Positions 15,002 through 30,379 are shown, counted from the stretch's first letter. The stretch: 32,000 nucleotides of DNA from Candidatus Lokiarchaeum ossiferum (GCA_025839675.1 CP104013.1:5730001-5762000); one strand, 5' to 3'. Notes: generated by a model not told the origin, from the sequence alone. Program-made: numbers and translations.

Positions 15002-17140
15002 TCAGGAATTCACTATTGCTTGCAACATCTCTTTAATTTCACTAAATATTTCTTCTTTCGTTTGCAACTTAGTTATTCCTCCTAAATCCCGATTCTTCTT
15101 ATAACTTTTTCCAACTTGATGAAATAGGATATCTAATACTTCCGCACCTCGTATTATTGACAGTAGTTCATTATCAATTTCAAAAATAGATTCTTCTTTT
15201 GCCTCAAGAACCAAATTGTTGATTGCTTCGCGATTTTTAATTAAGGTATCGTTTGCCTCTACCTTTCTGTTTTTAATTATTTCGATCAAATTATCACATT
15301 GTTCTTGAAAATTATTAAGAAAATCATCATGGTTTTTTGTTTTAAAAATTTTTTTATCATTGAAATATATTGGATTGCATAATTCAGCAAAAACTCGTTT
15401 TTGAACTAAATCTGGCCCTGCATCAAATATTGCTTTGTTTAGATCTATTTTCTTACTTTCTACATCAGTTAAGTTGAATTGCTGCACTAAATATCGTGTT
15501 AGTATAATTGGATTTAAAACATAGTTTTCCAATTCTCGCCGTTTTAAGATAATTAGGTTAGAATTTTTAAAATCGGATAATTTTTCTTTAAATTTCTGGA
15601 TTTGATAATCAGAATTTTCATCTCGGTCGATTATGAACCACATTTTCATGCCTTGATCTTGTAAAAAATTCATGGTGGCACTAGCAGCATAATGGGTAAA
15701 GGATTTTATTCCGTTTAACACCACAAATCCAATGTGAAGGTCTTCCGGATTCATTCCAAGAGTAAAAAACCAATTATTAAATGCTTCTTTATCGGTGATA
15801 CCCTCAACAAAAATTAATTTATCATAGGTCAGAAGGTCGGCTGGAGATACTCCTAAACGAGTTGATGTTAAAATAAATTCTTCACGATCTAATCGTTTTA
15901 CAGTGGAAAAATCTTCACGACGTAAAACTTCATGTACACTTACTTTAGAACGAATTTGACTGAAAAAGAAAATGGAATGAGTTGAAATTAGTATTTGTTT
16001 GCCTGGAAGAAAATCTTGAATTACATTGAAAAGAATTTTTTGAAGCTTAGGATGCAAGTTTCCCTCGGGTTCCTCAATTAAAAGAATATTTTTTTCATCA
16101 GATTCCAATAAGTGAGTTAATATTATTACCAAATCCTTCAATCCTTTACCTAGAAAATCAAAATTTGTCAGATCTTCCTTATTATGTTCCCGAACAAACG
16201 GAATTATTTTGCCTGTGCTGAGATCTTGCCCAATTTCTGTAATATTCGAATAAAATTGCTTTAAAAGCAGATCTAATTTGTCTAATATTGGTTGCTTTTC
16301 TCGAATATTATAATATTGAAATAGTTTTTGGGGAAAATTATTACCATTGGGAGATATGGGATCGTGTATCAATTTCATCTCCATATTTGCTTGGAACTGG
16401 CGAACGTCTTCAATTGGATGGATATTGTCAAAAAACTGGAATATTTCTCTAAAAAAATATAAACCTAAAGACCACATTTCTTTTTTTCCTAAGTATTGAT
16501 CTACATCATGAGTAGTTCGCATATTATTTAGTTGAATCATGTCGGTTGTTATGGGGGAGATTTTCACAAATTCATTTATACCAACAAGGTAAAATTTAAT
16601 GGTAGTCTTCCTTATATAAGTGGATGAATGTAAAAAATTATATTTTTCAGATATTCTTGACTCATCCAATATTCCTGAGCCGTGAAGTGTGATCTTAGGA
16701 CCCAAATAAGTGATATATGACTTTCCTTCCCCATCAAATTTTATATTCATTTGAATTTTTTTAAAAAATTTCATAAAACCACATGAGATTTCATTCTCAT
16801 GGTAAACGATATTATGTTCCTGAATATTTTTAGGTGTCTCAGGGGAAAAATGTTCTTCTATTGCTTGCCAAATTTCCTGCAATTTAGCTCCGTTGAACCG
16901 AAATGTCATTTCTACTCCACAATCTGTGGATTTTTTCCCAGAACGGAATAAATTTGAATCGACAATTTTATGAAATCGGAATTGTTTTAGAAACCGAAAT
17001 AAGTTGGATTTACCGCTGTTATTAGGCCCAATAATTAGTCCGAGTTGATTTATTCGATCAAAACTTGCTTTCTGATAACTTAGAATATTCTCAAATTTAA
17101 TTGCTGTTAATCCCACTTTAGGTGAGTTCATGATTTCCAT
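15002..17140 (-). CDS. OLD-family nuclease (ABC-type ATPase fused to a Toprim domain)
   Basis: Walker A GPNNSGKS (aa 38-45), Walker B/D-loop LLIEEPEGNLHP, H-loop ISTHS, then a C-terminal Toprim domain with LIFVEGITDKE (catalytic Glu) and WFIIDRDENSD (DxD). This is the domain order of P2 Old and GajA. Confidence 0.85.
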   Translation of the reverse strand: MEIMNSPKVGLTAIKFENILSYQKASFDRINQLGLIIGPNNSGKSNLFRFLKQFRFHKIVDSNLFRSGKKSTDCGVEMTFRFNGAKLQEIWQAIEEHFSPETPKNIQEHNIVYHENEISCGFMKFFKKIQMNIKFDGEGKSYITYLGPKITLHGSGILDESRISEKYNFLHSSTYIRKTTIKFYLVGINEFVKISPITTDMIQLNNMRTTHDVDQYLGKKEMWSLGLYFFREIFQFFDNIHPIEDVRQFQANMEMKLIHDPISPNGNNFPQKLFQYYNIREKQPILDKLDLLLKQFYSNITEIGQDLSTGKIIPFVREHNKEDLTNFDFLGKGLKDLVIILTHLLESDEKNILLIEEPEGNLHPKLQKILFNVIQDFLPGKQILISTHSIFFFSQIRSKVSVHEVLRREDFSTVKRLDREEFILTSTRLGVSPADLLTYDKLIFVEGITDKEAFNNWFFTLGMNPEDLHIGFVVLNGIKSFTHYAASATMNFLQDQGMKMWFIIDRDENSDYQIQKFKEKLSDFKNSNLIILKRRELENYVLNPIILTRYLVQQFNLTDVESKKIDLNKAIFDAGPDLVQKRVFAELCNPIYFNDKKIFKTKNHDDFLNNFQEQCDNLIEIIKNRKVEANDTLIKNREAINNLVLEAKEESIFEIDNELLSIIRGAEVLDILFHQVGKSYKKNRDLGGITKLQTKEEIFSEIKEMLQAIVNS

Positions 17141-17342
17141 GTATCATTATCCTTACTCTTATTAAAGTCCTTAGGAAAATTTTCAGAGTTATTAACAAGT
17201 TGAAATGGTCCAATCTCAAAAAGCTAAAGATTAAGTCATATTTCTTGCTATCTTCTCAAAATAAATAAGAGATAGAATGCTTATGGCCAAATTCAAGCAC
17301 TACGTATTAAGTACCAATTTTATTTATATATAGGAAAGAGAA

Positions 17343-17508
17343 GAAGAAAATCACAAAAGATAAATACTCGGGTCCGCAAACCCTTTCTCTCAATCTTTGA
17401 TGTTCAAGATCTTCACCCGATAATTGTCCCAGCAGGACGTTCTCGGCCGAGAAAAGTTGTGAATAAAATTTTCTAAAGAAAAATAAGACATTTTTCTATT
17501 TAAGGTCA
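17343..17508. repeat. direct repeat, copy 2 (166 nt)
   Basis: Matches 14627-14792 (152/166 identical, no gaps), with the identical core at 17362-17406. Lies 203-368 nt upstream of the OLD start codon. On the minus strand it carries CTTAAATAG (17496-17504). Confidence 0.9.
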
Positions 17509-18005
17509 CGGGAAAGTCTTATTTTTAGATGGGTAAAAAATAAAATTAAACAAAACAGGTTCAACCAGCAATCTCAAGATGATGCCGCCGGATTACTTCT
17601 CTCATGATTCATCGAATACAGGAAGTCCAAGAACTGAACATCTTACAATGCATCAAGTTTCTTGGTAAACCCAACTTCCGCAAAGATATGCATATAACTC
17701 AAACACACACTTACCGTAGGTACATAGATCGAAAAATCAATAGTGATCTCCGTCATCTTACCTTATTAGATCAGCGAAGGCTTACAGAATCGGAAATGCC
17801 TTAAAAAAAGATCGCCCTCTCCTTGTTTATAGTTCATTTTGCAATGTTCCTGAATATGACGGCAATAAATGCGAAAAAGGCTGAAAAGAGAAAAAAAAAT
17901 CCCCAAAAAACTTCCTTGTACAAAGCATGCTTGATTCTAGGAATTTTTTAAGATATAATATATAAGATATAATTGATCAAATAAACAAACTGAGCTGTCC
18001 AAAAT

Positions 18006-18602
18006 ATGGCTACAATAATGAATCGAAAAAAGAATAATAAAATAATATCTTCGTTAATAGCTATTACTGCAATAATTATTAGGATTATGACAGATTACTT
18101 AATTAATATTATTTCAAATAATAATGAATGGATATCAACTCTTTTAGGAATAATTAAATTCGTATTTCCCACCCTATGTTTTTTATGGGTTTTTTTAAGA
18201 ATTTACGGAGATTATTGCGGAAAAAGACAAGAATTTCTTGAAATAATAGGATATTCAGGAACTAAGTGGTATCAATTTATAGATAAATGCTATGTAAAAC
18301 CTAATGAATATAAATCAATGAAGCACATTTTAAAAACTGAAAAAATTCTTTTTATCATTGGGCCTCCGCAGTATGGAAAAACCTATACAGCGGTAAAATT
18401 TCTTAAAGAATTTTATATTAAAAAAAAATTAAATCCTATTTGGATTAAAGGAGATTCAGTCCAAAACAGAAGAGTTTCAAGACAATTTTTGCTAGAATTA
18501 GAAACAAAGAATGTACAAGATTCAATCATCTATATTGAAGATCCTTTTGGAAAAACAAAGTATGAAAGAAGAGTTGGGATCGAGAGAAATTTGCTAGAAT
18601 AA
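18006..18602 (+). CDS. N-terminal fragment of a frameshifted membrane-anchored STAND-like P-loop NTPase
   Basis: Two hydrophobic helices (aa ~15-28 and ~45-66), Walker A GPPQYGKT (aa 119-126) and a Walker B-like SIIYIEDPFG (aa 173-182). The ORF stops 16 codons later at TAA 18600-18602. Confidence 0.6.
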   Translation: MATIMNRKKNNKIISSLIAITAIIIRIMTDYLINIISNNNEWISTLLGIIKFVFPTLCFLWVFLRIYGDYCGKRQEFLEIIGYSGTKWYQFIDKCYVKPNEYKSMKHILKTEKILFIIGPPQYGKTYTAVKFLKEFYIKKKLNPIWIKGDSVQNRRVSRQFLLELETKNVQDSIIYIEDPFGKTKYERRVGIERNLLE

Positions 18603-18721: not shown

Positions 18722-20005
18722 ATGAAAATATATTATCCTTCTTATGATTTATCAAAACGAAAGAAAATATTAAAAAAATGGGCAAAGATTGAGCATTGTT
18801 GGTGGAGGAAAAACCGAAAAATGAGAAATTTTATCTTTGATCAATTTAATAGCCCTATATTATTTCCTTCCCCTCTAAGTATTTGGAATTTTGCAGCTTT
18901 CTCGAAAAATATTAAGGAATTCGATGAAATAGAAAAAGAATTGTCTTCCACTCCAAACGAGTTTCTTAGTGATTACAGTAAAATATTTGAGAATTTATCT
19001 AGTGAAAGACAAATTATTTTCTGCCTAATATCCATTGCAGAGTGGAACGCTATTGTATTGGAAGCAAAATATGACCATCTATGTTCAAAGATTAATATTT
19101 CAAATCCCTTGGATTTTACTAAGTTAATAGAAATGCTAGAAGGGCAATATCTTATTATCTATAAAGAAGATAATGTATCCTATGTCAAATTTATTCATCC
19201 AATCTTTCATGAATCCTTTTTATTTAGCTTTTTTAGATCAAATTCTGTAAAAAATGGTTATAAAGAGATGATTGTGAAAATTTTTACTATGATGCTTGAT
19301 AGTGATTACTCTCTTTCTTTTGATCCCCACGATATTGATAGTGAATGGGATGATTTTGATGATTATCAAGACGAAACGAACGCTAGTTTAGTTAATGAAA
19401 AAAAAATATCTGATTTAGATCTTCATTTTAGTAACGAACCCATAATTGATTTTATAGTAAATAATTATAACATATTGCCAAATAAAATTCAACTAATTCT
19501 TTTTTCTCTTTCAGAAAAAGAAAATTCAGCAGGGATGGTCGGTAAGTGCTTATCTAATCATTTTTCAGAACTACCAGAAGAATTAGTAAAGCTGACAAAA
19601 AAAATTTTAACAGGTAATATTTGGCCTTGGGGACCCATTGAATATTTGATTGCGCAAATTAATTATATTCCTGGAGATTTTCAAAATATCATCTTGGATT
19701 TATCAAAGCAGGAAGAGTTTTATGTTGATATTAGCTATAGTTTCAGTCCATATTTTGACAACATCTCAGAAGTATTGCAAACTAAGCTTATTCATAATTT
19801 AATTGATAATGATCGTAGAGATCAATATATCTTGCATGCAATCAATTACCATTTTGATAAATTTTCATTATCAAGGAAAAAGGAAATAATTTCTCATATT
19901 AAATCCTACCCAGAATTAATCGATCTAATAAAAAATGGAAATATTAATCCTCATGATAATCAAAAATTAAAAGATTATTTACTCTTGGTAGATGGGGCAA
20001 TATAA
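18722..20005 (+). CDS. C-terminal fragment of the same STAND-like NTPase
   Basis: This frame is open from 18566 and reads ...EKFARIISYIKKTTNSYLIITSRDETF before the first ATG at 18722. LIITSR is the hhhTSR-type motif that follows Walker B in NACHT/STAND NTPases. About 400 aa of helical sequence follow. Confidence 0.6.
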   Translation: MKIYYPSYDLSKRKKILKKWAKIEHCWWRKNRKMRNFIFDQFNSPILFPSPLSIWNFAAFSKNIKEFDEIEKELSSTPNEFLSDYSKIFENLSSERQIIFCLISIAEWNAIVLEAKYDHLCSKINISNPLDFTKLIEMLEGQYLIIYKEDNVSYVKFIHPIFHESFLFSFFRSNSVKNGYKEMIVKIFTMMLDSDYSLSFDPHDIDSEWDDFDDYQDETNASLVNEKKISDLDLHFSNEPIIDFIVNNYNILPNKIQLILFSLSEKENSAGMVGKCLSNHFSELPEELVKLTKKILTGNIWPWGPIEYLIAQINYIPGDFQNIILDLSKQEEFYVDISYSFSPYFDNISEVLQTKLIHNLIDNDRRDQYILHAINYHFDKFSLSRKKEIISHIKSYPELIDLIKNGNINPHDNQKLKDYLLLVDGAI

Positions 20006-20292
20006 TTGATAGTCTATAATAAATCTAAAAAAATTTCAATCATCAAATTATTTATCTCCAATATTTACTTATTCGTATCTTAATTATTAAAAATGTTTAA
20101 AAAGGCTTTTTTCTAATTCTTTGATGTGTCCAGCAAAAAAGAGGAAATTATCCAACATTATTTTTCAGTAATTGAAAAAGCAGAATCTGATTCCCTAGTT
20201 ATTATTCAAAAAATTCGAGAATATTATACCACAAACCATGAATTTTCAAAAGAAAATATAATAAGTATTATCGAGGAAGGGGCAATAAGAGA

Positions 20293-22683
20293 GTGAAATT
20301 AAAAAATATTGATATAACCGCTTTTCGAGGTGTGCCTGCAACAAGGATTAATCTTGATAAAAAAAATTTAATCTTGTTAGGTGAAAATGGGTTTGGTAAA
20401 TCATCGATTGTGGAAGCCTTTGAATTTTTTTTTACCGGGGACCTGGAATTTAGAAAACCTCAGGAAATTCGTAAAGAGCATTTTACTACTTTAGGATTTT
20501 CCCCAGATAAAACCAAGCTGGAATTTACATTTGAGAATAATGAAATTCTTGAGAGAAATCTTACTGCCTTTGTTGATTTTGGCTCCAAATCAACAGAATT
20601 ATCTAACTTTGTCAAAAATTCTGCACTAGTTCGCTTTATCTTGCGGCGAAAACATATAATTCAATATATTGAAGCCCGTCCATCTATCCGATATAATGAG
20701 ATTACATCTTTAATTGGTCTGGATGATTTAAAAAAAGCAGAAACTACTTTTCGGAAAGTATTTCAACACTATGATAATAAATTGAGGCATATTGAAAACG
20801 ATCTCTTTCAAAAAGAAAAATACCTGTCTACACATCTACCAAAAACCAAAGATGGTGATTTCCTGCAGCGGATTAATTTATTTCTTCAACAGAATGATGT
20901 TAATTCAATTTCTTCTTTTCAAGAATTGGACAATAGATTAAAGACTTTAATCAAGGAAAATCCAGACAATTCAAATATTATTCAGCAATTCTCTTTTTTA
21001 AAAGCAACAAAGTCGAAATTATCCGAAGGAATCCGATTGATAAAATTATGTAAAAAATCACCTCTTAAATCCCATTTAGATGATTTCTTTCAATTTGATA
21101 AAGTTTTAATTACAGATATGGAAGAATCAAAGCAAAGACTATCATTCTTAATCGAATGTAAAAAACATCTACATATATCTAAATATCAAGGTATTTGCCC
21201 TGTATGTTCTCAAAGTATTTCCACCTCAGAAGTTGATAATAATATTGCAAATGAAATTAGAAGGTTAGAAGTCAAACTGGCTCAAAAAACAGAATATAGT
21301 CAAAAAATCACCATTTTGTTAAAAATGCTTCAAGATTTTCAAACTTATCTTAGTAAAATCATCTTATTAGATATATTTCCTATTAAAGAGCTGGATATAT
21401 TGAAAATGGTTAAAAAAAAAATTGAGGTATTTGATCAGAAAATTGAGGATATTGGAAAACCTAGTGGAAATATCTTTAAAGATATTGAATCTGATTTAAA
21501 TAATCTCGATAAATTTTTAAAAATTCAAATTGAAGGTATAAGAAAGAATTTACTCGAATTAGAGCCAGCGATAATATCTCATCCAAAATTTAATCTAATA
21601 AAGACCATTCCATTAATTCAGAAAACCTATCAAGATCTAATAGAATTACAAAAACAAGCAGAAATCATACTTCCAAAAAAGAAACTAACAGAAAAACTAT
21701 TAACTCACTTTTTGGATGTTGAGAGAAAAAAAATTCAAGAAATTTTTACAGAAATTCAGGAGAAAGTCCGAATATTTTATCGGATGCTTCATCCAACGGA
21801 TGATTTTTGTAATATAATTTTAGATCATGTTGATAACAATAAATTGAAACTTTTAATTGATTTTAGTACATCAAATGGTCAAGATCCACGTGCATATGAA
21901 AGTGAAGGACATCTTGATTCTTTAGCAATTTGTATTTTTCTGGCATATTTTAAAACCTTTCATAATGAATTTCCGTATCTTATTTTAGATGATGTTTTAA
22001 CCTCTATTGATAGTCAACATCGATCTAGATACTGTGATTTATTGTTATCTAACTTTCCAAATCAACAACTTATCATCACCACCCATGATAAAATATGGTT
22101 TGATTATATTTCTGGGCATATTCGAGCTAAAGGACAACAAAGTAAATTTTTAGAAATTCAGATAATCAGATGGGATCTAGAAGGCGGACTTCAATTTAAA
22201 AAAGTTATTCCTGAGGAAGATATGATCGATAAACTGATTGAAGATAATTTGATGAGTGCTGCTGGAAACCAGATAAGAATACTTTTTGAGAGAATTTTAA
22301 AAGATTTCTGTAAAATGTTTGAATTCTCGCTTAAATACAAGGAGAATAATGATCATACTATTGGTGATCTATTTCCCACTATAAAAAAGCAAATTTGTGG
22401 ACTAATTTTGAACGAACCTTTAAAATCTAGAGTGGACAATTTGTTTACAAAAATCGAAGCACATAGATGGATGGGAAATTTGCTCTCACATGATAATATG
22501 GATAGAAGTTCAATTACAACCGAAGAAGTTCAAATTTTTAAAGAATTGGTATTTTCTCTTAATAAATTATTTATTTGCGATGATTGCAATAATAAAATGG
22601 TCTATGCAAAAGAACTCAGAACAATTAAATGTAAATCTCTGGACTGTGTTTGTTCAAACCAAGGTGCAACAAAAAATCGGTAA
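20293..22683 (+). CDS. RloC-like protein: Rad50/SMC-type ABC ATPase with a coiled-coil zinc hook, a C-terminal PrrC/RloC-like HEPN region and a terminal zinc ribbon
   Basis: GTG start. ITAFRGV...LILLGENGFGKSS (Walker A, aa 30-37). A long Lys/Glu/Leu-rich insert has CPVC at aa 302-305. Signature-like SEGHLDSL, Walker B YLILDDVLTSID (aa 562-573), H-loop IITTHD. Downstream come R662-x3-E666 (QIRILFERIL), N729-x3-H733 (MGNLLSHD) and CDDC...C-x4-C-x-C (aa 762-787). Confidence 0.7.
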   Translation: MKLKNIDITAFRGVPATRINLDKKNLILLGENGFGKSSIVEAFEFFFTGDLEFRKPQEIRKEHFTTLGFSPDKTKLEFTFENNEILERNLTAFVDFGSKSTELSNFVKNSALVRFILRRKHIIQYIEARPSIRYNEITSLIGLDDLKKAETTFRKVFQHYDNKLRHIENDLFQKEKYLSTHLPKTKDGDFLQRINLFLQQNDVNSISSFQELDNRLKTLIKENPDNSNIIQQFSFLKATKSKLSEGIRLIKLCKKSPLKSHLDDFFQFDKVLITDMEESKQRLSFLIECKKHLHISKYQGICPVCSQSISTSEVDNNIANEIRRLEVKLAQKTEYSQKITILLKMLQDFQTYLSKIILLDIFPIKELDILKMVKKKIEVFDQKIEDIGKPSGNIFKDIESDLNNLDKFLKIQIEGIRKNLLELEPAIISHPKFNLIKTIPLIQKTYQDLIELQKQAEIILPKKKLTEKLLTHFLDVERKKIQEIFTEIQEKVRIFYRMLHPTDDFCNIILDHVDNNKLKLLIDFSTSNGQDPRAYESEGHLDSLAICIFLAYFKTFHNEFPYLILDDVLTSIDSQHRSRYCDLLLSNFPNQQLIITTHDKIWFDYISGHIRAKGQQSKFLEIQIIRWDLEGGLQFKKVIPEEDMIDKLIEDNLMSAAGNQIRILFERILKDFCKMFEFSLKYKENNDHTIGDLFPTIKKQICGLILNEPLKSRVDNLFTKIEAHRWMGNLLSHDNMDRSSITTEEVQIFKELVFSLNKLFICDDCNNKMVYAKELRTIKCKSLDCVCSNQGATKNR

Positions 22684-22754: not shown

Positions 22755-23252
22755 TTATTGTGACCAGTGATTCTGAGTAATTATCTTCTCCAATTTCAAA
22801 TATAATGAAATTCCTTTCTGAGCCAAAATCTTTGGTCCATCATTAAAGGGAGAAATCCCTTCTATCATAAAAGTTGGAGAATCTTCGACATCATTATCAA
22901 TTTCCCAATTCGCGAATAAATTTGATTGGGGAGTTTTTGGATGTTCTAATTCCCCTCTTTTAGCAGAAAATTTCTGAATTTCTGTGACTAATGATGTATC
23001 TATAAAATCCATTTTTTTTAATAGTTCATTCAATGTGGAAATTCTCCAATATTTCCTTTTATTATTAAAATGGGGTAATTCTCTTAATTTAACAATTAAT
23101 AATGAAGTCATCGCGGAATGAATGCAAAAAATTGCTCCAAAAAATAAATTTTCATTGAAGCATTTTAAGGCTTCGTTTTTCATTTCAAGAAAATGAAAAG
23201 ACCTATCTAAGTACAAACCTTTATTTTCGGGAGGGATTTTATCGTTCTTCAT
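22755..23252 (-). CDS. small helical protein with an Rx4H HEPN-like motif
   Basis: 165 aa. The N-terminal helix pair ALKCFNENLFFGAIFCIHSAMTSLLI resembles the first HEPN helices. SAKRGELEHP gives R99-x4-H104, matching the HEPN Rx4-6H signature. Confidence 0.4.
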   Translation of the reverse strand: MKNDKIPPENKGLYLDRSFHFLEMKNEALKCFNENLFFGAIFCIHSAMTSLLIVKLRELPHFNNKRKYWRISTLNELLKKMDFIDTSLVTEIQKFSAKRGELEHPKTPQSNLFANWEIDNDVEDSPTFMIEGISPFNDGPKILAQKGISLYLKLEKIITQNHWSQ

Positions 23253-23480
23253 TAGTAATACTTCTTATTCTTTATTAAAATTCAAATCTCTAACAAGATA
23301 TAAGTATTTCCATCAGATCTTTGGTTGGATAAAAAAAATCTGAGTATGACTGAGATTAATTTGACATACCGATATTTTAATGGTCGCTACAAAATCTTCC
23401 AATGTCTTCACCAATTCCAGAAATTATGAGCGTAAGTTGCGGATGAATCATCAAATAGCGTCAATCTGTTTTTGAGTTCT

Positions 23481-25676
23481 TCATTTGAATGGATCCTGTA
23501 ATATTATCCATTTGACAATTCCGTAATCAGTTGGTGTCTCTTGTTGATGAAGTATGCTAAACATTTTTGATACCGTTTGATCTATTCCCAAAGCGATACC
23601 TAAATTCTTATTTGTAATTCTCATATCTTCGATTAATTGACCTAAAACTTCATCCTTCGCAGTATTACTCTCAATTTTTTTTACTTCGATCAGAATATTG
23701 TTATCAACTGATATATCAATATGAGTTGTTCTCACTAATTTATCATTAAGAACAACGCTTGGGAAATGATTTCTCAATTCTTCACAGATTCGAGGGTTTA
23801 TTCCACGATCTTCATGAGGGAGTGGATCAGAAAACATCTCTTCCAATTTCAAATTCGAAAGAAATTTTGATAATTTGTTGAATTGCGGAGTTTTTGTAAA
23901 TATTGGTTGAAGCCCTAGTTTCCGTCTTGAGGATTCAATTAAAACCAATCCACGTTCAGTTGCAATATCCCGAATAGTTAATTGATTGGAAACAGAAAAT
24001 TCTTGCAATATTTTTTTTAGCACTGGGGATTCTAATTCTTCGGATTCTAACAAAATTTCTTTCATTGCATCAAGAGCGCTTTTACAAATAAGTTGGCATT
24101 CAACCAATTTTTCAGTATTAGGTATCATTTGTTGGGAAACTGGTATCTCTTGCCATTTATTAAGAATCTTCAAAATACCGCTAGGGAATAGTTCCCCAAA
24201 TTTTTCAATATCTGCTTTAAGTTTTCTAATATTTCTAGTAGTATCGACTACTTCTCCGTGTGTTAAATATAGGAGATCTTCAATAATTGTCCAAGTTGGG
24301 AGGCATTTATGAACCTCATCGAAATTTTCATTATATAAATCAAATAATTTGTGAAGTGTCTCAAACTTGGATTTTGCCTTCTTAATATCTCGATTTCCAA
24401 TAGCCAGCGGTATCTCATGTTGGATAATGTTAATTTCCAATTCTGCTTTCTCTTTTTCTGATATGCTTACACTAATTGCCTTTTGATTATACATTATTAC
24501 CTTTTTTGAATTTAAGGATTTTTTATAATGTTTAATTAAGTTGATGTAAATAGAATGTATGTCCTGTTGATGAATTTTGGAAAAAAAAGAACTTTCTATA
24601 TTCGGAACCACTTTTTCAAAATGAATTTTTTCATACAATGGAAGAAGCCTTTCAGCAATTAAGGGACAATAAAAAGATGTCTGTTCAACACAACTTAAAA
24701 TATCTTGCACAAAATTTGGATTCCATTGAATTGATTCAGGAGGAAGATCTAATTCAGGTACTTCCAAAATATTATTAAGCAAAGGTGTGAAGAAATCTAC
24801 GTATATCTGAATTGAATTTTCTTGAAAATCAACATAGGATGGAATGGAATTAAGTATTCGCAATAATTGCGATTGAGTTCTTAAATCTTCTGAAGAATTA
24901 TAATGATCAATAATTATCAAAATCCATTCGTTTTTATATTTCCTTGATTCAAAAAGGACATAATGCAAACCATCAATGAATGTTTGCTTTGCAAATTCAT
25001 CATTCAATCGATTATAATTCTCTAAATACTTATCAATAATCTCTTCACTCCAGTCCAAATATCGGATATTTCGGGCAAATCGAAGAAAACATTCACCTAG
25101 GATTTTCATGGAGTATGCGATTATATACTCATTTTCATTAGTTAAGCACAACTCTTGTAAACGATTAAAATGACCCTCGAATTTCTGGAACAAGGTTGAA
25201 GCAAACCTATCTAGAACAATTAATGAAAAAGTGATAATATCCAAATTATCAGAATAAATATTATTAAATAGTAGGGATAATAGTTCATTCATTTGAGAAA
25301 AAAAGAGGCGAGTGCATTGGGCTAAAATATGTAATCCCATGAGCTGATTTTTTAAAGAATCTCCTTGAATATTTTCCCAGATAAACTTTTTAATAGCAGA
25401 TTTCAAAATGGAATTATTTTGGCCATGAAAATCAACAAAAATATATCTAGCAAAAATTGAGGCGGAATAGGAAGGAAATTCTTCTTGATTATAGACACTC
25501 TCAATTCCTTCCAAAAACTCATCTAAATATTCTGGGTCGCGAGATAGTTTTTTTTGAATTTCACTTAGTTTCTCTTGATATTCTATGGTTATTTTGTTTT
25601 GAGAAATTCTCATATACTCATTTATTAGCTGATTGATATTCACCATGTTTAATCCCATATTAATATAAATGATCAT
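23481..25676 (-). CDS. large helical-repeat protein with an HTH-like segment and a C-terminal PD-(D/E)xK nuclease-like motif
   Basis: 731 aa. The N-terminal ~380 aa is all-helical and repeat-like. LTIRDIATERGLVLIESSRRKLG looks like an HTH. The C-terminus THIDISVDNNILIEVKK gives D654...E665-x-K667, followed by GQLIED. Alternative starts at 25658 or 25646 sit just after the upstream stop codon (25660). Confidence 0.55.
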   Translation of the reverse strand: MIIYINMGLNMVNINQLINEYMRISQNKITIEYQEKLSEIQKKLSRDPEYLDEFLEGIESVYNQEEFPSYSASIFARYIFVDFHGQNNSILKSAIKKFIWENIQGDSLKNQLMGLHILAQCTRLFFSQMNELLSLLFNNIYSDNLDIITFSLIVLDRFASTLFQKFEGHFNRLQELCLTNENEYIIAYSMKILGECFLRFARNIRYLDWSEEIIDKYLENYNRLNDEFAKQTFIDGLHYVLFESRKYKNEWILIIIDHYNSSEDLRTQSQLLRILNSIPSYVDFQENSIQIYVDFFTPLLNNILEVPELDLPPESIQWNPNFVQDILSCVEQTSFYCPLIAERLLPLYEKIHFEKVVPNIESSFFSKIHQQDIHSIYINLIKHYKKSLNSKKVIMYNQKAISVSISEKEKAELEINIIQHEIPLAIGNRDIKKAKSKFETLHKLFDLYNENFDEVHKCLPTWTIIEDLLYLTHGEVVDTTRNIRKLKADIEKFGELFPSGILKILNKWQEIPVSQQMIPNTEKLVECQLICKSALDAMKEILLESEELESPVLKKILQEFSVSNQLTIRDIATERGLVLIESSRRKLGLQPIFTKTPQFNKLSKFLSNLKLEEMFSDPLPHEDRGINPRICEELRNHFPSVVLNDKLVRTTHIDISVDNNILIEVKKIESNTAKDEVLGQLIEDMRITNKNLGIALGIDQTVSKMFSILHQQETPTDYGIVKWIILQDPFK

Positions 25677-26244
25677 ATATCATTTTTAATGTCGAAGAAT
25701 AAATGCTAAGGAGATTCTGGAGTTGTCCTAGTGATAGATCTGAGTGAGGTTTTCGAATCTCCCTGTCAAGCTCGTTTCCAATTGCCTTACATCGATAGAT
25801 CAAGAATTTTGCAGTACCTTCTTTTTCAATAGCATGATGATATATTTTTGGATCTTGTACCCCTAAATCCCGAATTAAATTCTCTATATGATTTTTTATT
25901 GGATTTTCCAAATTGATATATATATCTGAATGTTGTATTTTTATTACTTCTTTTAAAATAATTTTGAGTTCAAATTCAAATTGGGAAATCTCTTGATGAA
26001 AATCAAGAGAACCATGTATTATTCTGAGACCTTCAAATAAAGACACATAATATTGGTCATAATCTTCTTGGGAAGTAAATCGATTATTTTCCATTAAGGA
26101 GATTATATCTCCCAGAAGATCTTCACATTTTTCACACTTATAGTGGGGGTAATTCAGAATTCTCCCATTTTTCAACTTCATTGGAAAATGTTTTAATATT
26201 TTGGATGTAGGTTGTCTGCAAAATATACAGTATTTTTGACTCAT
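25660..26244 (-). CDS. zinc-ribbon protein, first gene of the operon
   Basis: 194 aa. C6-x2-C9 and C36-x2-C39 (CIFC...CEKC) form a four-Cys ribbon, and the rest is helical. It overlaps or abuts the 731-aa gene, which suggests translational coupling. Confidence 0.55.
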   Translation of the reverse strand: MSQKYCIFCRQPTSKILKHFPMKLKNGRILNYPHYKCEKCEDLLGDIISLMENNRFTSQEDYDQYYVSLFEGLRIIHGSLDFHQEISQFEFELKIILKEVIKIQHSDIYINLENPIKNHIENLIRDLGVQDPKIYHHAIEKEGTAKFLIYRCKAIGNELDREIRKPHSDLSLGQLQNLLSIYSSTLKMIYDHLY

Positions 26245-26265: not shown

Positions 26266-26275
26266 TTTATATTAA
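26266..26275 (-). promoter_or_regulatory. TATA-like box for the 26244 operon
   Basis: The minus strand reads TTAATATAAA, with its 5' end 31 nt upstream of the ATG at 26244. This spacing fits an archaeal leaderless or near-leaderless transcript. Confidence 0.3.
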
Positions 26276-26922: not shown

Positions 26923-27471
26923 TCATGGAATATTCGATAAATTTAATGAAGGAAGAGGGTGGAAATAAGGAGATAATATTGAAATGGGGATGTTGAAAGA
27001 CATCATTAACAACCGTAAGACATGGACTCGAGATGCAAACGGGGATTTATGTGATTGATACGTGGTCCACAAAGGCCCATAAATCGAAAGGAATATCTGC
27101 CATACACTCGATTCTATGTAGTTAATCGAATGGAGAGCATCTGCACACAACCGATTGATCCAAGGATCGACGGCGATGATCGTTTTAGTGTGCAAAAAAA
27201 TGCGTAGGAGACTCTGCCGAAATTCCGCCTTACATAACGGAGGATCCGTTTTGATCCATGCATGAAGACTGTGTCGCGTTTTGAGATAAGTTAGATAGGA
27301 AATATCGAAGATGTGTAGGATGAGACGAAGGTTGACGATAAACCCATGCTTGCGCGCCCGAACTATAAAACAGACGGCTTGTTGTGCAAGAGACGCGTGA
27401 GGATAACGAGCGAGAAAACCAGCCATGTACACATAGGGCACCCCCAACTCAGAACATACTCTTTCCAGCAT
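26923..27471 (-). CDS. hypothetical protein (higher-GC block)
   Basis: The ORF-track start at 27480 is TTG. I prefer the ATG at 27471, which shares one base with the upstream TGA (TGATG). 182 aa. No motif recognised. Confidence 0.5.
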   Translation of the reverse strand: MLERVCSELGVPYVYMAGFLARYPHASLAQQAVCFIVRARKHGFIVNLRLILHIFDISYLTYLKTRHSLHAWIKTDPPLCKAEFRQSLLRIFLHTKTIIAVDPWINRLCADALHSINYIESSVWQIFLSIYGPLWTTYQSHKSPFASRVHVLRLLMMSFNIPISILSPYFHPLPSLNLSNIP

Positions 27472-27941
27472 CAACTGCAATCCCCCTCCCGATCGAAAGG
27501 CGAAAGATATCGACCTGCTAAGTCATCTTGAAGCAATGCATATACTTCAGATGGAAAGTAGATGGCGTGATATAAAGATCTTAACATATCCCAGTGGTGC
27601 ACGACGGTCCAATCGGGATTGATATTGGCCCCCCAGAGTTGAAAGAGAAATTCAATTCGTTCTTGCCAATCCGCAAAATCCAATAATTCCACCAGCAGAT
27701 CATGACACCGCTTGACTTCTAAGCGTGGTCCCACACAGGGTTGAAACCGTTCGGAAAGATCAAAGCGTTTTTCTTGGGTGATTAAGAAATTTTGCAGCAA
27801 AGTGGCATCCAGCGGAAAGTGTGCCAGAGTCTTAAGAAACCCATCTAAAAGCGTGCCTGTCTCCAAAAATGTGAAAATCGACTCGGGAATTCGTAGATGA
27901 TCCTTCCCTTTGGTCCCTTGCGAACATGAATCCTTAATCAT
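27471..27941 (-). CDS. hypothetical protein (higher-GC block)
   Basis: The ORF-track start at 28151 would overlap the upstream gene by 218 nt. The internal ATG at 27941 (MIKDSCSQG...) overlaps the upstream stop by 8 nt (ATGATTAA), a typical coupling junction. 156 aa. Confidence 0.5.
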   Translation of the reverse strand: MIKDSCSQGTKGKDHLRIPESIFTFLETGTLLDGFLKTLAHFPLDATLLQNFLITQEKRFDLSERFQPCVGPRLEVKRCHDLLVELLDFADWQERIEFLFQLWGANINPDWTVVHHWDMLRSLYHAIYFPSEVYALLQDDLAGRYLSPFDREGDCS

Positions 27942-28872
27942 TGAAGAACGCCCCCTTATAATCCAAAATGGAATTTTCTGAGGGAGAGATAACCTCCCCA
28001 TTGCGAATGTGCAAATCGTGAAAATCCAGTAGTAAAGTACACTTCCGTGCGAGAATACACCGACGAGGGGCCGCTTTCCCCAAATGGGTCTGTAGATCAA
28101 TATCAGATTTCCCGCACATGGGACACGTATTCGTTTGGCAAATAATGACATGTTGATCTCGTCCCAAAGGTACGATCTCGAAAGATCCCCGCATGGTCGG
28201 ATGGGTTTGTAAGTGGTGGATCCGATGGTGAGTTAGCCCCTTGGAAGGGATATATAGCAAACCTTGGCGCAGAATGGTCGGTGAAAATAAAGCTTTCTTA
28301 TCAAACTCTACCATGTGGCGGAGAGTGCTTAAAGACCCATAATAGCGCGCATACTTGCCAAATAGTATTAATTCTTCGGCATATTTCTCATGAAATAGAC
28401 ATTGATAAATAATCATGAGATCGAACAGTTTTTGACAATCTTGGGGATCAAAGAAAAACTTGGAATGTTCCTGGTGGCGAGAGAGAAACTTTTCAAAACA
28501 CATTATCCACTTAATCACAAACTTGGTATCTAATTCCACAAAATGTTGAAAGACCACTTTAAGCATCCGGAGAAGGAATTTCACTTCGGCAAAGGGAATC
28601 TGGATATGGCCATACTGCTGATACAGAGCAGTCTCCAAAGTCCACAATTCTCGAAAGTATTTAGGGGCAGCTGGAGATTTTTGATTATGGCGAATCAATG
28701 TATGTACAAAATCATTCCGATATTGCGCATAAACGCCTAAGGGATCGGTTTCAATGGCATGAGTGAGATCGTCATTTATTTTTTGGCCAAAAAACTGAGT
28801 CATCATGAGGTTCGGAACTTTACTGGGATCTGATACTAGGGCATTTTCAGGGGATAAAGGGACGGAAAGCAT
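27934..28872 (-). CDS. hypothetical protein with a Cys cluster (higher-GC block)
   Basis: 312-aa ORF, first gene of the minus-strand higher-GC operon. Contains C-x4-C-x2-C (CQTNTCPMC) plus two further Cys residues downstream. No family recognised. Confidence 0.55.
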   Translation of the reverse strand: MLSVPLSPENALVSDPSKVPNLMMTQFFGQKINDDLTHAIETDPLGVYAQYRNDFVHTLIRHNQKSPAAPKYFRELWTLETALYQQYGHIQIPFAEVKFLLRMLKVVFQHFVELDTKFVIKWIMCFEKFLSRHQEHSKFFFDPQDCQKLFDLMIIYQCLFHEKYAEELILFGKYARYYGSLSTLRHMVEFDKKALFSPTILRQGLLYIPSKGLTHHRIHHLQTHPTMRGSFEIVPLGRDQHVIICQTNTCPMCGKSDIDLQTHLGKAAPRRCILARKCTLLLDFHDLHIRNGEVISPSENSILDYKGAFFND

Positions 28873-29027: not shown

Positions 29028-29351
29028 ATGCCCAAGATACGCATTGCCCATCTCTTTATTTTGAAAGAACTTGCAACTCTTCTCCAGATTCAAAAAGTAA
29101 AAGCCATTCAAAAACCCACCTTCGTTCACCATTTAGATCAAATCCCCCTTACCACCTTCCAACTATTAGATATTGATAAAAAGGAGAGGGAAAAAGTAGC
29201 CCACTTGAAATATGAAACTTATTTCCGGGTGATGCGCGATACGGGGATCATTGATAATGTACGGATGAAAGGTGACGCGCAAACCCCGTCTCTTTATTCT
29301 GTATCGAAGCTTGGGTATGAGATTTTGAATCTTTTTGATATCACCTTCTAA
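29028..29351 (+). CDS. small protein, possibly a winged-helix DNA-binding regulator
   Basis: 107 aa, divergent from the higher-GC operon. The C-terminal TPSLYSVSKLGYEILNLF resembles the wing plus last helix of MarR/PadR-like wHTH proteins. This is weak and based on pattern only. Confidence 0.35.
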   Translation: MPKIRIAHLFILKELATLLQIQKVKAIQKPTFVHHLDQIPLTTFQLLDIDKKEREKVAHLKYETYFRVMRDTGIIDNVRMKGDAQTPSLYSVSKLGYEILNLFDITF

Positions 29352-29419
29352 TTTTTGAATATGATAAATATTACTCGGTCCGAAGAAATATTAAATTTTT
29401 TAGGATCTGAATATGTATT

Positions 29420-30379
29420 ATGAAAAACCAATTTGTTGAAATAACATTGAACGAAATCAATGATTTTGTTTTTGCAATTCATCCATTCAAAGAACCATAC
29501 TTAAAAAACTTCAAAGAGTTAATAAAACCAACGTTTGAGAAAAAAGGTTTCACTTGTGATAACGTCGGTGAAAAGAAAGGACCAATTAATATAAAGAAAG
29601 AAATTTGGAAGTTAACAAGAACTGCAAAAATAATAATTGCAGATATTTCTGATCTGAATCCTAACGTTTTCTATGAATTAGGATTAGCACATGCTTTAGG
29701 AAAGCCCGTAATTATCATTATTGATTCTAAAACAAAAAATCCTTTTGATGTAAATAGTATAAAAGCGATTGAGTACAATACAAGTGAAAAAAGGTGGAAA
29801 AATAAATTAAAAATAGAAATTAGCGAATATATCGATGCAATTATTCAAGAAAATCAATTTCACATTTATGATAATATCTCAGTAAATATTAAAGATGTGG
29901 CAAAATTAGGTGATATTCAAGAAAGAATACAAAAAATATCAAAAATACATCCATTAGATCTACTGCCGGATGACTTAAAATCAAAGGAATTAAGTCCTAT
30001 TGAAATTGCATTGAATAGATTCAGTCAATATTCCGAACAAGAAAAAAAAAAGAAAGAGAAAGTGCTTCAAATTCAAGCAAAAAGAATTTATGATGATTTG
30101 CAGAAGATACTTTTTTCAAACGACCAAAATATAGATGATTCAAAATATTCACTTGTATTTAATGAAATTACTCCATTAGTGACAAAATTAGGCTTTATAT
30201 TCGACACAGAATTCATTTCTGATGATGATTATATATCTTTCTTCAATATAGATAATAAGTATATTTTAAAAAGGTCTGGAGTTCATTATCTTTCTAATAA
30301 AGAAGATATAGATAAAAGACAATTTCTCAAAGATTTAAAAGATTATTGGAAAGAAAAAATTGAGTTAGATATAAGTTAA
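29420..30379 (+). CDS. nucleoside 2-deoxyribosyltransferase-like (SLOG/TIR-related Rossmannoid) domain protein with a helical C-terminal half
   Basis: FVFAIHPF...TAKIIIADISDLNPNVFYELGLAHALGKPVIIII matches the core strand-helix-strand of Nuc_deoxyrib_tr-like domains (xFExGxAxxxGKPV). The C-terminal ~170 aa is Lys/Glu-rich and helical. Confidence 0.55.
   Translation: MKNQFVEITLNEINDFVFAIHPFKEPYLKNFKELIKPTFEKKGFTCDNVGEKKGPINIKKEIWKLTRTAKIIIADISDLNPNVFYELGLAHALGKPVIIIIDSKTKNPFDVNSIKAIEYNTSEKRWKNKLKIEISEYIDAIIQENQFHIYDNISVNIKDVAKLGDIQERIQKISKIHPLDLLPDDLKSKELSPIEIALNRFSQYSEQEKKKKEKVLQIQAKRIYDDLQKILFSNDQNIDDSKYSLVFNEITPLVTKLGFIFDTEFISDDDYISFFNIDNKYILKRSGVHYLSNKEDIDKRQFLKDLKDYWKEKIELDIS

What the first reader, a model, noticed from the sequence alone, without database searches (positions are those of the whole stretch)
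22755..26244. Candidate undescribed defence module: zinc-ribbon protein, helical-repeat/HTH/PD-(D/E)xK protein, and an Rx4H HEPN-like protein
Three co-directional minus-strand genes lie in the most AT-rich part of the island. The 194-aa four-Cys zinc-ribbon gene abuts or overlaps the 731-aa gene (stop at 25660; candidate starts at 25676, 25658 and 25646). The 731-aa protein combines about 380 aa of helical repeats, an HTH-like segment, and a terminal D654...E665-x-K667 restriction-endonuclease-type motif. After a 228-nt gap comes a 165-aa protein with HEPN-like helices and R99-x4-H104. A DNase-type plus an RNase-type effector joined to a large repeat 'sensor' is the logic of many antiviral systems. 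However, this domain combination does not match any named system I know (Gabija, Lamassu, Septu, Zorya, Wadjet, PARIS, AVAST, CBASS and others). A TATA-like box sits 31 nt upstream of the first ATG.
Basis: partly seen in the sequence, partly recalled or inferred. Interest (0 to 1): 0.7.

Follow-up and report, generated by a model that had tools for sequence, protein, structure and literature searches.

The report
Archaeal repeat-sensor nuclease, not a trio
The three genes are real, but only the big middle one has relatives: it fuses a repeat scaffold to a DNA-cutting domain, belongs to a small unnamed Lokiarchaeia gene family found in antiviral gene clusters, and occurs elsewhere without the two small genes.

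Summary
The window is Candidatus Lokiarchaeum ossiferum B-35 (CP104013.1, about 5.730-5.762 Mb). All three minus-strand ORFs exist as described.

- **731-aa protein.** It has a confidently modelled ARM/HEAT-type alpha-solenoid (residues ~90-470), a helical linker, and a C-terminal PD-(D/E)xK nuclease domain.
- **Family.** An exhaustive search found only 36 clusters. Every one whose source could be named is Lokiarchaeal or from marine sediment. The nuclease module is constant; the N-terminus is swapped between ARM/HEAT, LRR, TPR-like, AbiTii and HNH.
- **Partners.** None of eight independent full-length homologue loci, and none of about 30 family loci, carries a relative of the Zn-ribbon or 165-aa gene. 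No neighbour is conserved.
- **Context.** Neighbours are often defence genes: OLD-like, nuclease-SAVED, Mrr, DUF4238, Lamassu-like.
- **Small ORFs.** Both are ORFans. The Cys4 motif is real. The HEPN reading of the 165-aa protein could not be verified: Rx4H arises by chance in 14% of shuffles, there is no profile hit, and the model has pLDDT 38.

Best reading: a stand-alone sensor-nuclease of Shedu-like logic in a strain-variable defence island, not a conserved three-gene system.

The parts
23481..25676 (-). 731-aa gene (NEF87_004891; NCBI start 25646, 721 aa): ARM/HEAT solenoid, helical linker and PD-(D/E)xK nuclease
   Evidence: ORF. 100% match to the L. ossiferum protein. AF2 with a 5-sequence alignment gives pLDDT 76.4 and pTM 0.58. 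36 homologue clusters found.
24267..25409 (-). Residues ~90-470: alpha-solenoid of ARM/HEAT type, the proposed sensor or binding scaffold
   Evidence: pLDDT 84-95 per 10-residue block apart from the 312-319 loop. Foldseek PDB top hits are Vac8, importin-beta/transportin, AP adaptor, CAND1, beta-catenin and PP2A PR65, with E from 3e-5. Identity to homologues is 29-35%, lower than for the nuclease domain.
23889..24266 (-). Residues ~471-596: helical linker of lower confidence.
   Evidence: pLDDT 39-78 with helices 478-573. I571, R584 and G588 are invariant in five full-length homologues (that call numbers residues one lower). No Pfam HTH hit.
23484..23888 (-). Residues 597-731: C-terminal PD-(D/E)xK (restriction-endonuclease fold) domain with E622, H652, D654, E664, K666 and Q680
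   Evidence: Weak hits to Pfam PDDEXK_3 (E 0.0018 full length, 3.8e-4 domain alone) and TIGR04256 GxxExxY. Of 23 family members, 16 hit REase_DpnII-MboI (best 2e-5) and 12 hit PDDEXK_3. D654, E664, K666, G679, Q680 and D699 are invariant in 23 sequences. The model shows alpha-beta-beta-beta-alpha-beta order with D654 and E664/K666 on consecutive strands.
25660..26244 (-). 194-aa gene (NEF87_004892): N-terminal Cys4 Zn-ribbon motif (C6, C9, C37, C40) plus an uncharacterised C-terminal part with R161-x5-H167. An ORFan, and coupled to the 731-aa gene.
   Evidence: ORF, Cys positions and the overlap or 1-13 nt gap with the 731-aa starts. Two or more CxxC by chance in 0.13% of shuffles. Only faint RING/Zn-finger Pfam hits. 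No PADLOC, NCBIfam or PDB hits. No relatives in about 37 related loci or in viral contigs.
22755..23252 (-). 165-aa gene (NEF87_004890): small ORFan, helical only in a low-confidence model, with R99-x4-H104. HEPN identity unverified.
   Evidence: ORF and motif. The only hit is to itself in 5.8 billion proteins. No Pfam, NCBIfam, PADLOC or PDB hit. AF2 pLDDT 37.7 and Foldseek E of 0.85 or worse.
23253..23480 (-). 228-nt spacer holding a T8 run (23331-23338; 142 nt after the 731-aa stop, 78 nt before the 165-aa ATG) and a TATA-like TTTTAATAAA (23271-23280; first base at -28)
   Evidence: Read directly from the sequence. The interpretation as an archaeal oligo-T terminator followed by a promoter is inference.
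26266..26275 (-). TATA-like box TTAATATAAA, first base 31 nt upstream of the 194-aa ATG. This would imply a leaderless or short-leader mRNA.
   Evidence: Sequence. Two public contigs begin at 26225 and 26226, 18-19 nt inside this ORF. AT-rich DNA makes such boxes common, so this is weak evidence.

Best explanation
The locus is a stretch of a strain-variable defence island in Ca. Lokiarchaeum ossiferum B-35, and its functional core is the 731-aa gene alone. That protein is a single-chain sensor-nuclease. An ARM/HEAT alpha-solenoid (residues ~90-470) is joined by a helical linker to a C-terminal PD-(D/E)xK nuclease with the catalytic set E622/D654/E664/K666.

It belongs to a small, unnamed family that appears restricted to Lokiarchaeia. 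The nuclease module is the constant part. The N-terminal part is exchanged between ARM/HEAT, LRR, LRR+ARM, TPR-like, AbiTii, HNH and unknown domains.

Proposed mechanism, which is inferred and not shown: the repeat domain binds a virus- or mobile-element-derived ligand. Binding relieves autoinhibition or drives oligomerisation of the nuclease, which then cuts DNA.

The flanking 194-aa Zn-ribbon gene and the 165-aa gene are lineage-specific ORFans and not conserved partners. The 194-aa gene is co-transcribed with the 731-aa gene in this genome. It may be a local accessory or an independent small toxin-type gene. The 165-aa gene probably has its own promoter.
For: - **Domains.** AF2 model with pLDDT 76. 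Foldseek hits to ARM/HEAT proteins with E from 3e-5. The nuclease core shows the right strand and helix order. D, ExK and GQ are invariant across 23 sequences. 16 of 23 members hit REase_DpnII-MboI and 12 of 23 hit PDDEXK_3. PDDEXK_3 and GxxExxY hit the window protein itself.
- **Family size and spread.** 36 clusters among 1.84 billion representatives. Named members come from the Loki's Castle sediment metagenome, Ca. Harpocratesius repetitus and a Promethearchaeota MAG. Median GC of the loci is 0.28.
- **Modularity.** LRR, TPR/RPN7-like and AbiTii N-termini were detected, the AbiTii hit at 30.4 bits, above the Pfam cut-off. LRR+ARM occurs in P0004. HNH plus the nuclease domain occurs in L034 and L037. 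The nuclease domain is 43-48% identical across homologues, the solenoid only 29-35%.
- **Autonomy.** No relative of the 194-aa or 165-aa protein occurs in any related locus. No neighbour is conserved. Upstream genes are divergent in L001, L004, L006 and L036.
- **Defence context.** In the window: OLD/AriAB-like, LmuB-like and nSTAND3 genes. Elsewhere: an OLD-like gene (L011), a Cap4-like nuclease-SAVED gene (L021), Mrr_cat (L023), DUF4238 (L032) and an AAA_15/DUF3696 gene (L030). The LmuB-like neighbour is listed as a B35 singleton relative to strain B36.
Against: - No experiment supports the proposal. Nuclease activity, ligand and antiviral effect are all inferred.
- The Pfam hits of the window protein itself fall below the curated cut-offs.
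- No solved structure matched the family profile.
- The nuclease fold could not be searched separately from the solenoid.
- The defence context is anecdotal: several loci, no enrichment statistic.
- Many related contigs are short, so distant partners could be missed.
- The tight coupling of the 194-aa and 731-aa genes (overlap or 1-13 nt) argues for some functional link in this strain.
- HNH-nuclease fusions show that the conserved module need not be the only effector. It could serve DNA binding or oligomerisation.
Confidence: 0.55

Rival explanations
1. A strain-specific two-gene operon. The 194-aa Zn-ribbon protein and the 731-aa sensor-nuclease work together, with the small protein acting as regulator, adaptor, antitoxin-like inhibitor or second (RNase) effector. 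The 165-aa gene is unrelated.
For: - The 194-aa stop overlaps or lies 1-13 nt from the 731-aa starts.
- There is a single TATA-like box upstream of the pair.
- Public contigs that look like transcript assemblies run from the 5' end of the 194-aa gene through the 731-aa gene.
- UniRef's automatic name for the 194-aa protein is 'DUF4145 domain-containing'. With the Cys4 ribbon, that would give the architecture of the RAZR/PD-T7-4 RNase (PMC13017515).
Against: - None of eight full-length homologue loci has such an upstream gene, and several have a divergent gene instead. The nuclease family therefore does not need it.
- DUF4145 could not be reproduced with Pfam, even on the isolated C-terminal part.
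- No PADLOC model matched at E up to 0.1.
- Rx4-6H occurs by chance in 72% of shuffles of this protein.
Confidence: 0.2
2. One reading: a three-gene system with a Zn-ribbon protein, a repeat-sensor DNase and a HEPN RNase acting together.
For: - The genes are co-directional and lie in a defence island.
- R99-x4-H104 is present in the 165-aa protein, and UniRef's automatic name for it is 'HEPN domain-containing'.
- Public contigs cover all three genes without a break.
Against: - The genes never co-localise in any related locus.
- The 228-nt spacer holds a T8 run and a TATA-like box.
- HEPN has no profile or structural support, and the motif is not beyond chance.
- Contig continuity cannot separate read-through from the convergent LmuB-like transcript.
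Confidence: 0.08
3. It is not an immune gene. The family would be a lineage-specific DNA-processing or mobile-element-associated nuclease on a protein-interaction scaffold. ARM, LRR and TPR proteins are generally expanded in Lokiarchaeia. On this reading the island context is coincidental or reflects a selfish element.
For: - A DDE transposase lies next to the split copy in Ca. Harpocratesius repetitus.
- An integrase-like fragment lies next to L003.
- Several neighbourhoods hold only unannotated genes.
- No PADLOC model matches.
Against: - Defence genes recur beside family members in unrelated loci.
- One member carries an AbiTii abortive-infection domain.
- A swapped N-terminus on a constant nuclease is the pattern seen in immune sensors such as Shedu (bioRxiv 10.1101/2023.08.10.552793).
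- The family has a patchy distribution.
Confidence: 0.12

Closest known systems
Shedu (SduA; DUF4263 PD-(D/E)xK nuclease with diverse N-terminal sensor domains)
   Same: A single-gene system. A conserved C-terminal PD-(D/E)xK nuclease core is combined with highly variable N-terminal domains that regulate it (bioRxiv 10.1101/2023.08.10.552793 and 10.1101/2023.08.10.552762). The family here shows the same constant-nuclease, swapped-N-terminus pattern.
   Different: No SduA or other PADLOC model matches the 731-aa protein at E up to 0.1. The nuclease resembles REase_DpnII-MboI and PDDEXK_3 rather than DUF4263. The N-termini here are long repeat solenoids (ARM/HEAT, LRR, TPR). The family is known only from Lokiarchaeia.
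DSR2 (SIR2 effector plus alpha-solenoid/HEAT-repeat sensor that binds the phage tail tube protein)
   Same: An NTPase-free single protein in which an alpha-solenoid repeat domain senses a phage protein and switches on a fused enzymatic effector (PMC11850899, PMC11263360). This is the closest precedent for the mechanism proposed here.
   Different: The effector is a SIR2 NADase at the N-terminus, not a C-terminal nuclease. There is no sequence relationship (no PADLOC hit). Ligand binding by the solenoid here is only inferred.
Avs/STAND (NLR-like) defence proteins with TPR sensors and nuclease effectors
   Same: Repeat sensors (TPR, LRR) are combined with restriction-endonuclease-fold effectors, and the genes sit in defence islands. 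This comparison rests on my own knowledge of the family.
   Different: The 731-aa protein has no P-loop or STAND NTPase module by Pfam, NCBIfam or PADLOC. The model is solenoid, linker and nuclease only.
RAZR / PD-T7-4 (Cys4 zinc ribbon plus DUF4145 HEPN RNase), as a comparison for the 194-aa protein only
   Same: N-terminal Cys4 Zn-ribbon motif, about 200 aa, and a C-terminal R...H pair followed by about 27 C-terminal residues. UniRef's automatic name is 'DUF4145 domain-containing'.
   Different: No PADLOC model matched at E up to 0.1. Pfam DUF4145 did not match. The spacing is R161-x5-H167, against R146-x7-H154 in RAZR.

Membership tests
PD-(D/E)xK nuclease superfamily (C-terminus of the 731-aa protein) | Conserved acidic and lysine catalytic motif, D...(D/E)xK, on consecutive beta-strands | tested here: met
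   D654 and E664-V-K666 are invariant in 23 family sequences. In the model they lie on strands 653-656 and 660-667.
PD-(D/E)xK nuclease superfamily (C-terminus of the 731-aa protein) | Alpha-beta-beta-beta-alpha-beta core fold | tested here: met
   AF2 secondary structure: H621-636, E640-642, E653-656, E660-667, H670-687, E691-698, with pLDDT about 56-87. The fold could not be searched on its own because the model cannot be cropped.
PD-(D/E)xK nuclease superfamily (C-terminus of the 731-aa protein) | Profile match to a curated PD-(D/E)xK family | tested here: inconclusive
   The window protein scores 19-21 bits against PDDEXK_3 (cut-off 22) and E 0.005 against TIGR04256. Across the family, 16 of 23 members hit REase_DpnII-MboI (best E 2e-5) and 12 of 23 hit PDDEXK_3, all in the same register. 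The family profile found no PDB sequence.
PD-(D/E)xK nuclease superfamily (C-terminus of the 731-aa protein) | Metal-dependent nuclease activity | not testable with these tools
   Needs biochemistry.
ARM/HEAT alpha-solenoid (residues ~90-470) | Stacked helical-hairpin or three-helix repeats forming a superhelix | tested here: met
   pLDDT 84-95 apart from the 312-319 loop. Foldseek probability is 1.0 for Vac8, importins, AP adaptors, CAND1, beta-catenin and PR65, with E from 3e-5 and TM 0.2-0.5. No Pfam repeat family is detected.
Cullin (UniRef automatic name of the 731-aa protein) | Cullin repeats plus a cullin-homology domain detectable by profile or fold | tested here: not met
   No Pfam cullin hit at E up to 10. 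No cullin chain appears among the top 50 Foldseek PDB hits; only the HEAT protein CAND1 in cullin complexes does.
HEPN (165-aa protein) | Rx4-6H motif | tested here: inconclusive
   R99-GELE-H104 is present. It arises by chance in 14% (Rx4H) and 37% (Rx4-6H) of composition-preserving shuffles. There are no homologues with which to test conservation.
HEPN (165-aa protein) | Four-helix up-down bundle or a profile match to a HEPN family | tested here: inconclusive
   No hit in Pfam, NCBIfam, PADLOC or PDB. The single-sequence AF2 model has pLDDT 37.7 and the best Foldseek E is 0.85, so it is uninformative. The UniRef name 'HEPN domain-containing' is a lead, not a test.
RAZR / PD-T7-4 (194-aa protein) | N-terminal Cys4 zinc ribbon | tested here: met
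   C6-x2-C9...C37-x2-C40. The chance of two or more CxxC is 0.0013. Faint RING/Zn-finger Pfam hits cover residues 2-43. This holds at motif level only.
RAZR / PD-T7-4 (194-aa protein) | C-terminal DUF4145 HEPN domain with catalytic R and H | tested here: not met
   Pfam DUF4145 is not detected in the whole protein or in residues 46-194 at E up to 10. The same search does find DUF4145 (E 0.001) in the neighbouring LmuB-like protein. No PADLOC model hits at E up to 0.1. R161-x5-H167 is not beyond chance.
Shedu (731-aa protein) | DUF4263/SduA nuclease core | tested here: not met
   No SduA model hit in PADLOC at E up to 0.1.
STAND/Avs (731-aa protein) | Central P-loop STAND NTPase | tested here: not met
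   No NTPase family is found in Pfam, NCBIfam or PADLOC. The model has no alpha/beta NTPase domain.
Conserved multi-gene defence system (the trio) | Component genes co-occur in other genomes | tested here: not met
   tblastn, BLASTP and phmmer with the 194-aa and 165-aa proteins against 25 + 8 related loci found nothing. All-versus-all clustering of the neighbours in the first 25 loci found no conserved neighbour.

The most novel reading that the evidence does not exclude
The 731-aa protein represents a Lokiarchaeia-specific repertoire of NTPase-free pattern-recognition nucleases. In these proteins, eukaryote-style repeat sensors (ARM/HEAT, LRR, TPR) are wired directly to a restriction-endonuclease-fold effector. 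[quoted passage not shown] In this strain it may additionally be paired with a RAZR-like Zn-ribbon RNase.
Probability: 0.3. Interest if true: 0.6.

Novelty: new variant of a known kind. Interest (0 to 1): 0.4.

Why it matters
If the family is an immune sensor-nuclease, it adds an uncharacterised single-gene defence type to Asgard archaea. Their defence repertoire is of interest for the origin of eukaryotic immunity. It would also show ARM, LRR and TPR sensors coupled to an effector without a STAND NTPase switch.

A cultured host (L. ossiferum B35 and B36) and a cultured virus of strain B36 now exist (bioRxiv 10.64898/2026.02.13.705702), so the idea is in principle testable.

The result also shows that tight local gene order in a single genome is poor evidence for a multi-gene system.

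Tried and rejected
- **Word-indexed protein searches.** Searches with the 731-aa protein, the 165-aa protein and a 12-sequence alignment returned only self hits. Only the exhaustive search found the family.
- **Cullin lead from the UniRef name.** Rejected.
- **Rosetta-stone test.** P0004's extra 237 residues are LRR, not the Zn ribbon. No family member carries a segment like the 194-aa or 165-aa protein.
- **Solved structures.** Sequence searches with the 731-aa, 194-aa and 165-aa proteins, the LmuB-like C-terminus, the L001 neighbour and the family profile gave nothing meaningful.
- **Viral contigs and viral structures.** No relatives were found.
- **Fold search of the 165-aa model.** It was run although the model is poor and, as expected, was uninformative.
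- **Pairwise comparison.** The 194-aa protein, the 165-aa protein and the DUF4145-like LmuB C-terminus show no similarity to each other.
- **Cassette-defining repeats.** None was found at the ends of the 6-kb public contigs.
- **Origin of runs SRR32148620-23.** It could not be established from the paper library.

Full report
**Origin and observation**

The 731-aa ORF is 100% identical to NEF87_004891 of Candidatus Lokiarchaeum ossiferum. A supplementary table places UYP48611.1 at 5757934-5758872, which equals window 27934-28872. The window is therefore CP104013.1, about 5,730,001-5,762,000.

The 194-aa gene ends at 25660-25662. The 731-aa frame has ATGs at 25676 (17-nt overlap), 25658 (1 nt after the stop) and 25646 (the NCBI start).

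The Cys4 pattern C6/C9/C37/C40 is real and unlikely by chance (0.13% of shuffles). R99-x4-H104 exists, but such a motif arises in 14% (Rx4H) to 37% (Rx4-6H) of shuffles of this protein. The TATA-like box starts at -31 from the 194-aa ATG. The trio has GC ~0.30 and is not the most AT-rich part of the window.

**The 731-aa protein**

Pfam gives a sub-threshold PDDEXK_3 match at residues 641-697, and NCBIfam gives the related GxxExxY model at the same place. PADLOC gives nothing.

The exhaustive HMMER search found 36 clusters. Four are full-length homologues at 30-33% identity, and many proteins share only the last ~110-130 residues.

An AlphaFold2 model built on five full-length sequences reached pLDDT 76.4 and pTM 0.58. 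Residues ~90-470 form a confident all-helical solenoid. Residues 621-726 run helix-strand-strand-strand-helix-strand, with D654 and E664/K666 on consecutive strands. Foldseek against the PDB returned ARM/HEAT proteins: Vac8, importin-beta and transportin, AP adaptors, CAND1, beta-catenin and PR65. It returned no cullin. UniRef's automatic name, 'Cullin family profile domain-containing', is therefore not supported.

An alignment of 23 C-terminal domains has invariant D654, E664, K666, G679, Q680 and D699, and near-invariant E622 and H652. Scanned one by one, 16 of 23 members hit Pfam REase_DpnII-MboI (best E 2e-5) and 12 of 23 hit PDDEXK_3. I accept the PD-(D/E)xK assignment.

It has no Pfam support and is modelled as low-confidence coil.

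**The family is modular and lineage-restricted**

The constant nuclease module is fused to several N-termini:
- ARM/HEAT, as in the window protein, P0003, P0005 and P0008.
- LRR plus ARM, in P0004.
- LRR, in L015, L017, P0024 and P0030.
- TPR/RPN7-like repeats, in L009, L010, L012 and P0028.
- An AbiTii domain above the Pfam cut-off, in L021 and P0034.
- HNH, in the 314-aa gene of L034 and L037.
- Unassigned regions.

The nuclease domain is better conserved (43-48% identity) than the solenoid (29-35%).

Named sources are the Loki's Castle sediment metagenome (LCGC14), Ca. Harpocratesius repetitus, 'Candidatus Lokiarchaeota archaeon' and a Promethearchaeota MAG. The loci have a median GC of 0.28. 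No member was found on viral contigs.

**Neighbourhood test**

I fetched 25 loci with the family profile and eight more by exact look-up. tblastn, BLASTP and phmmer with the 194-aa and 165-aa proteins found nothing in any of them. All-versus-all clustering of the neighbours in the first 25 loci produced no conserved partner.

Eight independent loci encode full-length homologues: L001, L002, L004, L006, L030/31, L032/33, L034/35/37 and L036.
- The upstream gene is divergent in L001, L004, L006 and L036.
- It is a transposase in L030.
- The downstream gene, where co-directional, is a different thing each time: an HNH-nuclease paralogue (L034, L037), DUF4238 (L032) or an unknown 323-aa protein (L036).

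**Defence context**

In the window the trio is flanked by several defence-type genes:
- an LmuB-like SMC ATPase (PADLOC LmuB, E 4e-22) that is convergent with the 165-aa gene;
- an nSTAND3 fragment;
- an OLD/AriAB-like ATPase-TOPRIM;
- a 319-aa gene listed as a TIR-domain protein in a published table.

That table also lists the LmuB-like gene as a singleton of strain B35 relative to B36. The authors report that the two strains have largely different defence repertoires.

Other family members sit next to an OLD-like ATPase (L011), a Cap4-like nuclease-SAVED effector (L021, E 6e-66), an Mrr_cat nuclease and DUF6602 (L023), a HATPase_c_3 protein (L016), DUF4238 (L032) and an AAA_15/DUF3696 ATPase (L030). 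This is suggestive, but I did not compute an enrichment statistic.

**The two small proteins**

Both are ORFans. The 165-aa protein hits only itself among 5.8 billion proteins. Neither protein has a Pfam, NCBIfam, PADLOC or PDB match. The single-sequence model of the 165-aa protein is unusable (pLDDT 37.7), and its fold search gave noise.

UniRef's automatic names are 'HEPN domain-containing' for the 165-aa protein and 'DUF4145 domain-containing' for the 194-aa protein. I could not reproduce either. The same Pfam search does detect DUF4145 (E 0.001) in the C-terminus of the neighbouring LmuB-like protein.

If the DUF4145 name were right, the 194-aa protein would share the architecture of RAZR/PD-T7-4, a Cys4 zinc ribbon plus DUF4145 HEPN RNase (PMC13017515). 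I treat this as a lead only.

**Transcription signals**

The 194-aa and 731-aa genes are tightly coupled. After the 731-aa stop come 142 nt, a T8 run (23331-23338) and a TATA-like box that starts 28 nt before the 165-aa ATG. For an archaeon this reads as a terminator followed by a promoter, which is inference.

Two public assemblies (SRR32148622 and SRR32148623) contain 6.0-6.1-kb contigs identical to window 26225/26226 down to 20134/20182. Their ends lie 18-19 nt inside the 194-aa ORF and 10-58 nt inside a 56-aa ORF that overlaps the LmuB-like start. In SRR32148622, the cobalamin operon is assembled from 116 nt upstream of its first gene, without the divergent RadB-like gene. These boundaries look like transcript ends, so the runs may be RNA-seq. 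I could not verify the run type. Even if they are RNA-seq, convergent read-through prevents assigning the 165-aa gene to the upstream unit.

**Mechanism and placement**

The best-supported reading is a stand-alone sensor-nuclease. A repeat scaffold recognises a ligand and controls a fused PD-(D/E)xK nuclease.

- **Shown:** domain folds, catalytic-residue conservation, N-terminal swapping, absence of conserved partners, and recurrent defence neighbours.
- **Inferred:** the ligand, the activation step, the substrate and the antiviral outcome.

The closest logic is Shedu, a common nuclease core regulated by diverse sensor domains (bioRxiv 10.1101/2023.08.10.552793). DSR2 is also close: an alpha-solenoid sensor binds the tail tube protein and switches on a fused effector (PMC11850899). 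Membership in either family was tested by PADLOC models and not met. STAND/Avs membership fails for lack of an NTPase.

I rate the locus a new variant of a known kind, of moderate interest. The proposed three-gene system is not supported. An unnamed, Lokiarchaeia-restricted sensor-nuclease family is.

Noticed in passing
window 18722-22683 (+): 427-aa ORF, 56-aa ORF (ATG 20124, overlapping the GTG at 20293) and 796-aa ORF: A Lamassu-like unit. The 796-aa protein matches PADLOC LmuB (E 4e-22) and SMC_N. Its C-terminus carries a DUF4145-like segment (E 0.001) with HRWMGNLLSH, followed by a Cys-rich tail. NCBI calls it RecF. The 427-aa upstream protein has no family hit, but it weakly resembles the C-terminal part of a 714-aa metallophosphoesterase next to a family member in L013.
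   Followed up: partly
window 14620-14809 and 17336-17525, flanking 15002-17140 (-): A 190-nt direct repeat (88% identity) brackets the OLD/AriAB-like ATPase-TOPRIM gene. The first copy overlaps the 5' end of the 294-aa ORF at 13793-14677. It looks like the footprint of a cassette insertion, and it breaks short-read assemblies at both copies.
   Followed up: partly
window 18006-18602 (+): A 198-aa ORF contains only the first ~83 of 155 positions of the nSTAND3 NTPase model. It is probably a truncated or disrupted STAND gene.
   Followed up: no
window 29028-30379 (+): A 107-aa and a 319-aa ORF. The 319-aa protein has no Pfam hit here. UniRef names it nucleoside 2-deoxyribosyltransferase, and a published table lists it as a TIR-domain protein (arCOG09612) unique to strain B35.
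   Followed up: no
window 26923-28872 (-): A block with much higher GC (0.40-0.45, against ~0.30 around it) holds three mutually overlapping ORFs (185, 226 and 312 aa) in different frames, none with a family hit. The block may be foreign or frameshifted. The 312-aa protein has an 80%-identical copy elsewhere in strain B36.
   Followed up: no
L027, L028 (= window 26225/26226 to 20134/20182); L041, L042 (the cobalamin operon end of the window, starting about 10700-10785): Contigs from runs SRR32148620-23 end within about 10-120 nt of the first start codons of transcription units instead of running on into neighbouring genes. This suggests they are transcript assemblies. If so, the whole 194-731-165 stretch and the convergent LmuB-like unit are expressed.
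   Followed up: partly
L034 1648-4802; L037 627-3781: Two family members lie in tandem. A 730-aa ARM-nuclease gene is followed 18 nt later by a 314-aa protein with an N-terminal HNH domain and the same C-terminal nuclease module, in which the His equivalent to H652 is Asn.
   Followed up: partly
L030 6748-8909 (Ca. Harpocratesius repetitus genome): The closest homologue (39-49% identity) is split into 376-aa and 302-aa ORFs in different frames, directly downstream of a DDE transposase. It is probably a pseudogene. A giant ORF of more than 10,000 aa lies 1.7 kb downstream.
   Followed up: no
L001 1474-2070 (-); L007 1096-1824 (+): Genes next to two family members carry the classical HEPN-type RNxxxH motif. 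The L001 gene has RNGVSH and RNIYSH within 198 aa, and the L007 gene has RRNIIVH. Across all ORFs of the first 25 related loci there were 8 such motifs, against about 2 expected. No profile or PDB hit was obtained.
   Followed up: partly
L021 4758-5867 (+); L032 7079-8440 (+): A Cap4-like endonuclease-SAVED effector (PADLOC E 6e-66) lies 631 nt upstream of the AbiTii-nuclease member. A DUF4238 gene overlaps the stop codon of the LRR+ARM member.
   Followed up: no
UniRef names of NEF87_004890, _004891 and _004892: The automatic names are 'HEPN domain-containing', 'Cullin family profile domain-containing' and 'DUF4145 domain-containing'. None could be reproduced with Pfam, NCBIfam or fold search. 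They should not be taken as annotation.
   Followed up: yes
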